DNA of 64,000 bases, taken from NCBI RefSeq assembly GCF_009914755.1, contig NC_060926.1. One strand, 5' to 3'. The notes below the pieces were generated by a model, which was given only the letters and a program-made list of their open reading frames with translations, was not told the DNA's origin and made no database searches. The stretch is from the human T2T-CHM13v2.0 reference genome, Homo sapiens. Both the position numbers and the translations under genes were made by a program. The stretch's first letter is position 1. Each line of letters starts with the position of its first letter. Shown in pieces: positions 8,074 to 11,027 of this stretch.

Positions 8074-10740
8074 GTTACGTTAGTTTTAACTAAAGTCAGC
8101 CCAACTCCCAAACTTTCTCCTTTCAGTTTCTTATAAATTTAGAAAATCAAATCAGTTCTTAAAACTCAGTGAGAATGGAACTGATTTTGGCTTAAAATGC
8201 CTAAAACTTTATTTATTTACTTTTATCTTCTCATTCATATGTTTCTATCAGGCAGGCATACTCAGATTATATTTTACATTTCTGGTAAATAACCACAGTC
8301 AAGTAAAGGGAAATATACCCTGAAGTCATAAAAAGAAAGAAAAAAATAAAAACTTATTAATATGCACTTACATGCAAAAACAGATCTCCACATTTCCAAG
8401 AAGACATATTTGTACAAAATGTAAATATCACATTATGTGACTGTTATAGATAAAATTTGAAAAATGTACTTGCTTTTCATGTGTGCCTCAGATATTTCTT
8501 TAATTTAAAGCATCGATCTAAGCTTACTCTTCCCCAAACTCAAAATCAAATGGAGTTTCTAAATTATGACACCTTTATTAAGCTTGTGATAGGCCTGAAC
8601 AGGAAAAAGAAAGTATTGCCAAGTATCCATACAATATCAACTTAAACCAAAATATGCATAGTAAGTAAGTACAATATAAGTTAAGCAGCTCTGAATATAC
8701 TATACTCTGGAATTATTTTCTCTATTATGTTTGATTAGGGCAATGACGACTTTCTTTTGCTGTTGAATTTTTATCACTTATATTCTCTTAAGTTGAGAAA
8801 TAAAATACTGGAATTTTTTACAACACATATGCAAGCAATTACACATTCTGTAAAATTTGATGTTTGGAATTCCATTTTCTGTGCTATTTGGTTATACTGT
8901 TCGCGGGGGGTACTGGGGTTGGATTGGAGTTGGGGACTTTTTTGCATCAAGCATCACATTCCTTACATTTATGTCAATTACTATTAAGAAAAATTATCTG
9001 CTCATTTTTCAAAAACACCTACAGAGTAATTATAACTATTTGGGAATGTCTTTTAAAATATGGCTTATTTCATGTACCTTGTGAAACAGTCCTTTCATTT
9101 ATTCACATATTCAATTATTTCCATACTTTATTAAAGTACTTTATTCATTTTAACATAAATTAACAAAGAAAGTGGTATTAAAGGTTTTAAATTAAAGTTG
9201 GTTGTTTTGGTGGGGGAGGGGAGTAAACTGTTCTTTCTAGAGTCAAATTTTCAATTTCTATTGTAATTTTTCTGTGTTTTTCTCCTCCTGTTTTCTTCTA
9301 CTTTCTATTCAATTATTTTTGCCACCCTTCCAAACAACACATGCTTTTCATGCCATTACAAAGAAACTCAAAAGTTTTCACCTTTTATAAATTACCTCAT
9401 ATTTTAAAAACATAAAATGTAACATAAAAAGCTCCAAGTCTTAGAAAGTGCCCCCTCTATGGGACTCCTGACAGATTGTTGGATATTCATTTACAAATTC
9501 GTATTTTCACTTTTTAAGCTTTTTAGAACTTCTGATCTCTAGATTAATTTTATAAACTTTTTGAAACCAAAAACACACAGAAGCAGATATTTGTTCTAAA
9601 AATATAGATATATACATAGTATATATACATATATACCTGTATGTATGTGTCTATATATGAAAGTAATAGAAAAGGTTAATGAATGTCCAAAGTTTTAAAA
9701 GCTTGAGTTTGATGTTACATGGTTGAGTTGATGAAAATCTACAGTGGCTTATTTTAAAGGAGTACATGTCTGTATTTGAAATTGCAACCCTCAAGATTAA
9801 AGATTTAATAGAGGAATCAATTTAAATATTTTCTTATATACTACAACAGCTATGCATTTTTGCTTAACCATACCATATAACCCAACTGTAACATATGAAA
9901 ATTGCATAGGAAAAAAATGTGGTCACCAGGCAAGATTTATCTTTAAAAAAAAAAAAAAAAAAGCTTGGGTCTAAGGGGTAATGTCCATGCAAATATTCCA
10001 TGCCAAATAAGATATATACAAGACATGCTGATTTCCTGCCTTCCGCCATCCAACCGGGAACCACCACTGTCCTGTTAATCAAGCCAGTAGGGTGGGAAAA
10101 TACCACTGTTTAAGAAATCTGGCTTCTATCAGCCTCTGTCATGGAGAAACAAACGAGACTGCCTCCCAGTAAGCAAAAGTGATCACATTTTCACAAATGA
10201 AAATGGTAAAAAGAAGTTTAAATTGTTAAAGAGGAAAGAATGAGGAGCCAAAGACAAAGAAAAATCAAAGCTATCAGAGTTGCTGCAGAGGTTTTACTAA
10301 ACAAAGAATTTTATGAAGCAGCTGAAGTTCAGTACAAAAAGACTCCACCCTACCCAGCTTCTGCCGCGACTTTTCCTTGCTCTGAAAACTCCAGCCCACA
10401 GAACAGAGCTCCTCTAACTAAAATGCCTTTAGTGCTCCGTTTTAAGCATTCACTCTTTTCTTATTTTAAACGTCCCACTCTCACACTCAGCCAAAAGGAC
10501 TTATTGTAGGCTTTCCCAGAAAAATTTAGTAGTGTACTCTCTCCAACGGTGGATCTAGAAGCTCCGGATTTACAAACATCCCAATTGTCTTTCAAGTCGT
10601 TTTCCAGGTGCAAATCCGTCAGCCCCCTTCTCAAACTTCAAACCAGAACCTCCTCTTCACGCTCTTCCTGAGGCTTAACATTCCACCTATTTCCCAAACC
10701 GTGCAATAAACACTACAAGCAAAGCAAATGGCAAACTCAC

Positions 10741-10837
10741 CATCCTCGTCTTCTTCCTGGGCTTTTATTGAGACAAATTGCCCTAATAAAACAATAAGAA
10801 TGAGGAGAGGTCTTGCTTCCGCCCAGTTTGCCATCAT
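10741..10837 (-). CDS. COL5A2: COL5A2 coding exon 1 (97 bp; signal peptide and start of N-propeptide of pro-alpha2(V) collagen)
   Basis: Translation [32 protein letters not shown] matches the recalled N-terminus of human COL5A2. The exon ends GAG GAT G|GTGAGT, a canonical phase-1 donor at 10740-10735. The ORF-track extension (GEFAICF...) is intron read-through. Confidence 0.97.
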
Positions 10838-10869
10838 GTCTAAATATTAGACATGTGGGTTCTCCTGAG
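10822..10869 (-). promoter_or_regulatory. Collagen-type 5' stem-loop around the start codon
   Basis: mRNA CUCAG-GAGAACCCA-CAUGUCUAA-UAU-UUAGACAUG-AUGGCAAA-CUGGG. Perfect 9-bp upper stem (10835-10843/10847-10855) and a 5-bp lower stem including one G-U pair. Confidence 0.8.
10840..10854 (-). other. uORF2 (ATG TCT AAT ATT TAG; MSNI*) ending 2 nt before the main ATG
   Basis: Read directly from the sequence. Confidence 0.85.
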
Positions 10870-10890: not shown

Positions 10891-10905
10891 TTATTGTAGC
10901 ACCAT
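10891..10905 (-). other. uORF1 (ATG GTG CTA CAA TAA; MVLQ*)
   Basis: Read directly from the sequence; lies inside the inferred 5' UTR. Confidence 0.75.
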
Positions 10906-11019
10906 GAAGTCAGCTGTGGGCTCTTCTTTCAGCACCAGCCCCAGGGCAGCCTCTGCAAACCCCCTTTTTCAGCACCAGCTCCAGCACAGTCTGCGAAAAC
11001 TTTTTTCAAGCGATGCAGC

Positions 11020-11027
11020 TTTAAATA
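11020..11027 (-). promoter_or_regulatory. TATA-like box (TATTTAAA)
   Basis: + strand tttaaata reads TATTTAAA on the minus strand, about 185 nt upstream of the ATG. The promoter has no CpG island. Confidence 0.75.

What the first reader, a model, noticed from the sequence alone, without database searches (positions are those of the whole stretch)
10822..10869. COL5A2 carries a 48-nt collagen-type 5' stem-loop (candidate LARP6 element) with a divergent bulge
Seen: mRNA CUCAGGAGAACCCACAUGUCUAAUAUUUAGACAUGAUGGCAAACUGGG folds with a perfect 9-bp stem CAUGUCUAA/UUAGACAUG that pairs a uAUG with the main AUG, plus a CUCAG/CUGGG lower stem. Established: COL1A1, COL1A2 and COL3A1 mRNAs have a 5' stem-loop of similar size around the start codon with core ACAUGUCUA...UAGACAUG, bound by LARP6; COL5A2 belongs to the same fibrillar clade A. 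Inference: COL5A2 keeps the upper stem and uORF spacing but has a shorter lower stem and a larger, altered internal loop, the region LARP6 reads. It may therefore be co-regulated with type I collagen at different affinity, or may have kept only the uORF/stem function. The homology may already be noted in the literature; the functional status is the open question.
Basis: partly seen in the sequence, partly recalled or inferred. Interest (0 to 1): 0.7.

Follow-up and report, generated by a model that had tools for sequence, protein, structure and literature searches.

The report
Remodelled collagen start-codon hairpin in COL5A2
The mRNA for the type V collagen alpha-2 chain carries a fourth copy of the start-codon sequence that reviews describe only for type I and III collagens; it is predicted to fold into the same hairpin, but the loop read by the fibrosis protein LARP6 is rewritten, so it likely dampens translation without LARP6 switching it on.

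Summary
In detail: the 48 nt fold at -17.2 kcal/mol (z -4.8). Genome-wide, the core CATGTCTR-N5-TAGACATG occurs only at the starts of COL1A1, COL1A2, COL3A1 and COL5A2. The promoter/5'UTR is independently homologous to COL3A1. COL5A2 keeps the upper stem (20 of 21 nt) and both short uORFs, but not the LARP6 site. A one-codon insertion after the start rewrote the loop: 1 of 5 critical bases is kept, the lower stem is no better than chance, and a model of the known elements matches the upper stem only. Published LARP6 eCLIP lists 5 COL5A2 peaks, all coding, none at the start, against 2^8-2^9 enrichment at COL3A1. Knockdown changes COL5A2 translation efficiency by -0.23 log2 (p 0.051). Protein N-termini date the change: teleost col5a2a starts MMSFV like COL3A1 (2 of 2), amniotes MMA[NI]W (9 of 9). 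Best reading: a paralogous, LARP6-uncoupled hairpin that likely brakes initiation; the brake is untested. New variant of a known element; 1989-1991 papers that I could not read may have noted the DNA homology.

The parts
11020..11027 (-). TATA-like box (TATTTAAA) of COL5A2, within a promoter block homologous to COL3A1
   Evidence: 190 nt before the AUG versus 147 in COL3A1
10927..11000 (-). 34-nt direct repeat, spacing 40, in the 5'UTR; each copy holds a 9-mer that COL3A1 has once; roughly accounts for the longer TATA-to-AUG distance
   Evidence: (D1, 79% identity)
10891..10905 (-). uORF1, 4 codons (MVLQ), homologous to the COL3A1 uORF MVLL
10865..10869 (-). 5' strand of the predicted lower stem (CUCAG); marginal
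10859..10864 (-). 5' side of the predicted 6x4 internal loop (GAGAAC)
10856..10858 (-). CCA, predicted to pair with UGG at 10833-10831 and extend the upper stem
   Evidence: P 0.84-0.88
10835..10855 (-). Conserved 21-nt core: 9-bp upper stem with 3-nt loop; 20/21 identical to COL3A1, 17/21 to COL1A1 and to COL1A2
10840..10854 (-). uORF2, 4 codons (MSNI) ending in UAG two bases before the main AUG; same -17 position and length in COL1A1, COL1A2 and COL3A1
10832..10837 (-). Tandem start codons AUG AUG; AUG1 predicted fully paired; AUG2 has -3 A and +4 G and its A is the bulged base
10829..10831 (-). Extra codon (Ala3) relative to the four other clade A chains; shifts the 3' arm by 3 nt. It could equally be placed at Met2.
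   Evidence: protein alignment; present in 9 of 9 amniote and 0 of 2 teleost col5a2a N-termini
10822..10830 (-). 3' side of the internal loop (CAAA) and 3' strand of the lower stem (CUGGG: last base of codon 4, Trp5 codon, first base of codon 6)
10741..10837 (-). Coding part of COL5A2 exon 1 (signal peptide)
   Evidence: hub annotation; translation

Best explanation
COL5A2 carries a paralogous copy of the collagen start-codon element whose predicted upper hairpin and two short upstream ORFs are kept but whose LARP6-reading loop is rewritten, so it likely acts as a LARP6-independent brake on translation initiation. Steps. (1) Shown: sequence, position and uORFs match COL1A1/1A2/3A1, and the promoter and 5'UTR are homologous to COL3A1. 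(2) Predicted: the hairpin buries the upstream AUG, its stop and the main AUG. (3) Shown at protein level, inferred at RNA level: a one-codon insertion on the lineage to amniotes displaced the 3' arm and replaced the 5x4 AGUCU/UCAG loop with a U-free 6x4 loop on a weak 5-bp stem. (4) From published data: LARP6 gives no crosslinking peak at this site in stellate cells and has little effect on COL5A2 translation. (5) Inferred, untested: scanning ribosomes are slowed or diverted by the hairpin and uORFs, and some start at AUG2 (-3 A, +4 G). Alpha-2(V) output would therefore be damped and not boosted together with types I and III when LARP6 rises.
For: Core pattern with the UAG stop at exactly four loci, all clade A collagen starts; the other 3 of 7 hits lack the stop. 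20/21 identity to COL3A1 in the core against 4-5 of 13-14 in the flanks, between genes that split before ray- and lobe-finned fish (PMC2235844 passage), which implies selection on the core. Upstream promoter/UTR homology to COL3A1: score 52, 0 of 500 shuffles; none to COL1A1, COL1A2 or COL2A1. The model built from the three known elements matches only positions 14-37 of 48, at 22.6 bits, equal to a chance hairpin. The loop is essential and continuous helices do not bind LARP6 (PMC12288881 passages). Five critical loop bases (PMC4615758): 1 kept in COL5A2, 4 in COL3A1. eCLIP table: 5 of 5 COL5A2 peaks coding; 0 rows at 189179xxx or 189180xxx; 13 COL3A1 start-site rows at 8.0-9.3 log2. Translation efficiency on knockdown: COL3A1 -0.82, COL1A1 -0.57, COL1A2 -0.42 (adjusted p <= 4e-5) against COL5A2 -0.23 (adjusted p 0.49). 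N-termini and tree.
Against: No experiment on this RNA was found, so the brake is inferred. COL5A2 at p 0.051 falls inside the authors' P<0.1 list of genes translated less on knockdown, and lies between COL1A2 and COL5A1 (-0.11). COL3A1 itself lacks one 'critical' base yet is the most enriched target, so the five-base rule is not strict. The eCLIP table lists only peaks >=8-fold over input, from one cell type. The second CLIP set (U-87) is uninformative: it has no COL3A1 start-site peaks either. CAUG is its own reverse complement, so the upstream AUG may be a by-product of the stem. No orthologous DNA could be examined; the dating rests on 9 amniote and 2 teleost protein N-termini and no amphibian or lobe-finned fish. 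I recall, without having read it, a 1988 report that the COL1A1 inverted repeat was ineffective in translational control.
Confidence: 0.55

Rival explanations
1. It is a low-affinity LARP6 element: the two-helix-plus-loop geometry still binds LARP6 weakly and gives COL5A2 a muted version of type I/III co-regulation.
For: The predicted fold keeps two helices around a 10-nt loop. Stems matter only as double-stranded RNA and can be shortened. Translation efficiency drops -0.23, p 0.051. COL3A1 tolerates a loop change. LARP6 binds other structured sites at low micromolar affinity.
Against: No eCLIP peak at the start while coding peaks of 3.3-4.8 log2 were detected on the same mRNA. Both B1 uridines and the B2 AG are gone. 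The lower stem is not beyond chance.
Confidence: 0.2
2. It is a relic, or is held by a constraint other than RNA structure: start-codon context, the signal-peptide sequence, or a DNA-level inverted repeat near the promoter (the arms contain Smad-type GTCT/AGAC half-sites, motif recalled).
For: The flanks have decayed. Human COL2A1 lost the whole element, so it is dispensable in a clade A gene. Zebrafish larp6 double mutants show no obvious type I collagen defect (PMC7055395 passage).
Against: 18 of the 21 core bases are untranslated in the main frame yet 20/21 match COL3A1 after a split older than bony fish. COL5A2 has neither the full Smad palindrome nor a p53 half-site at the core.
Confidence: 0.12
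3. The remodelled purine-rich 6x4 loop on the new CUCAG/CUGGG stem is itself a conserved site for a different RNA-binding protein.
For: Trp5 (single codon UGG) followed by a G-starting codon (Ala or Val) is present in 9 of 9 amniote N-termini, as it would be if the lower-stem 3' strand were constrained. With the 3-nt shift, two lower-stem pairs differ from COL1A1 on both sides (read by eye).
Against: The 5' arm alignment is ambiguous. A protein-level constraint on Trp5 is not excluded. The lower stem is lost in one of three contexts and matched by 13% of shuffles. No binder is known to me.
Confidence: 0.1
4. The invariant self-complementary arms let COL5A2 mRNA pair with type I/III collagen mRNAs and so co-localise their translation (intermolecular pairing of collagen mRNAs is recalled from a 1987 paper, not read).
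For: Upper-stem sequence is kept without compensatory change in four genes although LARP6 does not read it.
Against: Co-folding gives no gain for COL5A2 with COL1A1, COL1A2 or COL3A1 (0.0 kcal/mol in 3 of 3); only homodimers and COL1A1-COL1A2 gain.
Confidence: 0.03

Closest known systems
COL3A1 5' stem-loop (LARP6-bound)
   Same: 20/21 core bases including the loop, tandem AUG AUG, uORF2 at -17, uORF1, TATA block and 5'UTR blocks; neighbouring gene on chr2.
   Different: COL3A1 has an 8-11-bp lower stem (P about 1.0), keeps 4 of 5 critical loop bases, has the top eCLIP enrichment (9.3 log2) and the strongest translation loss on knockdown. COL5A2 has a one-codon insertion, a 5-bp stem, 1 of 5 bases and no start-site peak.
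COL1A1 and COL1A2 5' stem-loops (5'SL of Yamada 1983 and Stefanovic, as cited)
   Same: Upper stem arms identical (17/21 with the loop), AUG in the 3' arm, 4-codon uORF ending in UAG, a second upstream uORF.
   Different: The 5x4 AGUCU/UCAG loop and 7-8-bp lower stem are absent. The element starts 125 nt from the annotated 5' end against 75-85 nt reported for type I.
Human COL2A1 start region (clade A gene without the element)
   Same: Same clade; also outside LARP6 5'SL control according to the review.
   Different: Human COL2A1 has lost the hairpin altogether (11/21, no stem); COL5A2 kept the upper half.
Generic uORF-plus-hairpin translational repression (established knowledge)
   Same: Short uORFs and a stable stem over the start codon.
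   Different: Here the uAUG, its stop and the main AUG lie in one hairpin inherited from a protein-gated element.

Membership tests
Collagen 5' stem-loop (5'SL) | Hairpin spanning the start codon, with the AUG in the 3' arm of the upper stem | tested here: met
   predicted fold, core P 0.97-1.00; no probing data
Collagen 5' stem-loop (5'SL) | Upper-stem core CAUGUCUR-N5-UAGACAUG at -18..+2 | tested here: met
   four loci genome-wide, all collagen starts; 20/21 to COL3A1
Collagen 5' stem-loop (5'SL) | Two short upstream ORFs, one inside the stem | tested here: met
   MVLQ at -68 and MSNI at -17
Collagen 5' stem-loop (5'SL) | Stable 7-8-bp lower stem | tested here: not met
   5 bp with one G-U; three canonical pairs become G.A, A.A, G.A; 13% of flank shuffles as good; absent in 1 of 3 contexts
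Collagen 5' stem-loop (5'SL) | 9-nt internal loop with the five LARP6-critical bases (B1 A, B1 U, B2 C, A, G) | tested here: not met
   ungapped register B1 AACCC, B2 UGGC: 1 of 5 kept. The paper's figure was not visible, but both B1 uridines are changed. COL3A1 keeps 4 of 5.
Collagen 5' stem-loop (5'SL) | Whole-element match to a model of the known members | tested here: not met
   positions 14-37 of 48 only, 22.6 bits; the three training members score 68-74 by construction
Collagen 5' stem-loop (5'SL) | LARP6 crosslinks at the start site in cells | tested here: not met
   published peak table of PMC13078889: 0 start-site peaks, 5 coding peaks; second data set uninformative
Collagen 5' stem-loop (5'SL) | Translation depends on LARP6 | tested here: inconclusive
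   -0.23 log2, p 0.051, adjusted 0.49, against -0.42 to -0.82 for members
Collagen 5' stem-loop (5'SL) | Nanomolar binding of purified LARP6 | not testable with these tools
   needs EMSA, ITC or MST
Collagen 5' stem-loop (5'SL) | Nucleotide conservation and covariation across vertebrates | not testable with these tools
   no vertebrate genome other than human is held; only protein N-termini were compared

The most novel reading that the evidence does not exclude
The LARP6 stem-loop is not a type I/III invention but an ancestral feature of clade A fibrillar collagen mRNAs. Teleost col5a2a and fish, amphibian and reptile col2a1 would still carry complete LARP6 elements, since their proteins start MMSFV or MFSF[VL]D. 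Amniote COL5A2 was uncoupled from LARP6 by a single inserted codon while keeping the AUG-burying hairpin, and human COL2A1 lost it entirely. A rise in LARP6 would then shift the type I/III to type V ratio, and so fibril diameter, at the level of translation.
Probability: 0.35. Interest if true: 0.72.

Novelty: new variant of a known kind. Interest (0 to 1): 0.5.

Why it matters
The LARP6 literature states that the 5'SL is found in no other mRNA, including other collagen mRNAs (PMC4813270; PMC4615758), and presents it as a selective antifibrotic target. A fourth paralogue with an intact upper stem and a rewritten loop corrects that statement in part. It offers a natural loss-of-binding variant that separates what the hairpin and uORFs do alone from what LARP6 adds. 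It also predicts that LARP6 inhibitors would largely spare type V collagen. Type V nucleates type I fibrils and COL5A2 is a classical Ehlers-Danlos gene (established knowledge), so the untranslated stem and uORFs are a place to look for regulatory variants.

Tried and rejected
Rfam: no family for the element. Chance hairpin: rejected; the looser pattern occurs at 11 loci (control 9) and the 5-nt-loop form at 7 (control 4), but the form with the stop codon occurs only at four collagen starts. Intermolecular pairing with type I/III mRNAs: no energy gain. Full Smad palindrome or p53 half-site at the COL5A2 core: absent. U-87 iCLIP tables (PMC13031558): the full-length file was searched only at three chr2 prefixes (0 rows, with COL1A1 and COL1A2 controls present) and the NTR-deletion file across the COL3A1/COL5A2 range (0 rows); the third file was not searched by coordinate. 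With no COL3A1 control the set is uninformative. The Dev Cell 2020 supplement held has no peak table. No genome-wide covariance-model scan was possible; the model was run on 13 held sources only. No zebrafish morpholino sequence for col5a2 turned up. Older papers that may describe the COL5A2 5'UTR were not held, so prior notice of the DNA homology stays open. The tree dropped five intended rows that missed the extraction pattern: human COL3A1, P0290, P0054, P0187 and P0033. The coding-region eCLIP sites were mapped to exons but not folded.

Full report
Observation. The quoted 48 nt lie at window 10869-10822 (minus strand) in COL5A2 exon 1. They fold at -17.2 kcal/mol, better than 200 of 200 shuffles. 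The 9-bp upper stem is predicted with P 0.97-1.00 in all three contexts tried. It buries the upstream AUG at -17, its UAG stop and the main AUG. The prediction extends this stem by CCA/UGG and leaves a 6x4 loop. The 5-bp lower stem is weak: P 0.55-0.77 in two contexts, absent in the third, and matched by 13% of 2000 flank shuffles, against 0.45-3.0% for the three known elements. Rfam has no family for it.

Homology. I took the paralogues from the same genome. The pattern with a 5-nt loop occurs at 7 loci (reversed-pattern control 4). The 4 that carry the UAG stop are the starts of COL1A1, COL1A2, COL3A1 and COL5A2. The 21-nt core is 20/21 identical to COL3A1 and 17/21 to COL1A1 and COL1A2, while the flanks match at 3-6 of 13-14. 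All four genes have a 4-codon uORF at -17, and COL5A2 shares a second 4-codon uORF with COL3A1. Upstream of the hairpin, the COL5A2 promoter and 5'UTR align to COL3A1 (score 52, 0 of 500 shuffles) but not to COL1A1, COL1A2 or COL2A1. Human COL2A1 has no hairpin. The element is therefore inherited, not a chance palindrome.

What changed. The signal peptides align with one extra codon in COL5A2 just after the start, which shifts the 3' arm by 3 nt. PMC4615758 (first part of the text and passages; figure not visible) names five loop bases whose single mutation abolishes LARP6 binding. In ungapped register COL5A2 keeps 1 of 5 and COL3A1 keeps 4 of 5. PMC12288881 (passages) reports that the loop is essential and that continuous hairpins do not bind. 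A covariance model from the three known elements matches COL5A2 only over positions 14-37 of 48, at 22.6 bits, the same as an unrelated hairpin (13 sources, not genome-wide). COL5A2 therefore fails the membership test for a full 5'SL while keeping its upper half.

Published functional data. For PMC13078889 I read passages, two results sections and rows of supplementary file 2. Its LARP6 eCLIP in human stellate cells lists 5 COL5A2 peaks, all in TGF-beta-treated cells and all coding (3.3-4.8 log2). They map to three consecutive Gly-X-Y exons about 100 kb from the start. No row lies at hg38 189179xxx or 189180xxx, where the start falls by that calibration, whereas 13 rows cover the COL3A1 start at 8.0-9.3 log2. 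On knockdown, translation efficiency falls by 0.82 (COL3A1), 0.57 (COL1A1) and 0.42 (COL1A2), all adjusted p <= 4e-5. It falls by 0.23 for COL5A2 (p 0.051, adjusted 0.49) and 0.11 for COL5A1. Against my reading, COL5A2 is inside the authors' P<0.1 list, the table shows only peaks of at least 8-fold, and one large supplementary PDF could not be read. The U-87 iCLIP tables of PMC13031558 have no COL3A1 start-site peaks either and say nothing.

Dating by protein N-termini. The 3' arm is coding, so the first residues report on it. Of 30 amniote-type COL5A2 fragments retrieved, 9 include the signal-peptide exon, and all 9 begin (M)MA[NI]W[AV]; they include stork, sheathbill and turtles. Of 24 teleost col5a2a-type fragments, 2 include it (Hucho hucho and one unnamed), and both begin MMSFVH, like COL3A1. 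A VWC-domain tree groups them with COL5A2 (support 92/95; 24 rows, 63 columns, five intended rows dropped). The Hucho domain is identical to a Salvelinus protein named alpha-2(V)-like that has the COL5A2-type flank. Several non-mammalian proteins grouping loosely with COL2A1 (83/81) start MFSF[VL]DSRT or MFRFVDSRT. Inference: the complete element was ancestral, and the insertion arose between bony-fish and amniote ancestors. Codons and the 5' arm were not seen, and no amphibian N-terminus was usable. PMC2235844 (passages) places the clade A duplications before the ray/lobe-fin split.

Mechanism. The most likely reading (0.55) is a LARP6-uncoupled brake. The homology is near certain, loss of high-affinity LARP6 binding is likely (about 0.75), and repression by the hairpin and uORFs is inferred from general principles and from the review's description of these features as obstacles that LARP6 and its helicase overcome (PMC4813270 passages). 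The inserted codon gives AUG2 a -3 A, +4 G context, with its A unpaired, a possible LARP6-independent start; this is speculative. Rivals are a low-affinity LARP6 site (0.2), a relic or non-RNA constraint (0.12), a new protein site (0.1) and mRNA-mRNA pairing (0.03; no gain).

Prior art. The review says the structure is found in no other mRNA, including other collagen mRNAs; PMC4615758 and bioRxiv 2020.09.30.320564 (first parts read) list only three mRNAs. Ten searches turned up no paper describing a COL5A2 stem-loop. Fourteen papers name both COL5A2 and LARP6; I opened two of them and saw the rest as listings only. The library lacks most older subscription papers. I recall that Greenspan et al. 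1991 reported strong homology of the alpha-2(V) and alpha-1(III) promoters and 5'UTRs, so the DNA similarity may have been noted; I could not read it. The loop remodelling, the eCLIP contrast and the dating were not found in print by these searches.

Verdict. A real feature and a new variant of a known element: a half-conserved fourth collagen 5' stem-loop that likely no longer answers to LARP6. Interest 0.5.

Noticed in passing
window 10927-11000: A 34-nt direct repeat with spacing 40 in the 5'UTR/start region duplicates a block that COL3A1 has once; TATA-to-AUG is 190 nt against 147 in COL3A1 and COL1A1.
   Followed up: partly
window 10728-10737 and 10825-10834: A perfect 10-nt inverted repeat between the first bases of intron 1 (overlapping the 5' splice site) and the AUG2/3'-arm region; in pre-mRNA it could compete with the hairpin base. 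Two other perfect 10-nt pairs occur in the same 3 kb, so it may be chance.
   Followed up: no
L014 2362-3877 (COL5A2 Gly-X-Y exons, outside the window): The five COL5A2 LARP6 eCLIP peaks cover three consecutive exons, suggesting one site on the spliced mRNA.
   Followed up: partly
COL5A1 exon 1/2 coding region (hg38 chr9:134,642,203-296 and 134,690,911-939, from the paper's table): COL5A1, the partner chain, has strong LARP6 peaks (5.7-7.0 log2) near its 5' end but no significant translation change on knockdown.
   Followed up: no
L013 8053 (human COL2A1 start); proteins P0040, P0176, P0191, P0192: Human COL2A1 lacks the element, but non-mammalian COL2A1-like proteins start with the residues that the canonical 3' arm encodes, so they may keep a full 5'SL.
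   Followed up: partly
proteins P0023, P0024, P0028, P0148, P0276, P0277: A teleost group with repeated VWC domains, related entries of which are named alpha-2(V)-like, starts with unrelated residues (MGPS..., MGFQ..., MDRS...), suggesting a second, independent loss; not placed in the tree.
   Followed up: no
L010 1501-1521 and L004 1501-1521: The COL1A1 and COL1A2 stems each contain a p53-type half-site and COL1A1 a full Smad-type palindrome (motifs recalled); COL3A1 and COL5A2 do not.
   Followed up: no
L012 around 2294 (COL3A1 5'UTR): COL3A1 has a further upstream AUG at -106 opening a 56-codon out-of-frame ORF that overlaps the main start.
   Followed up: no
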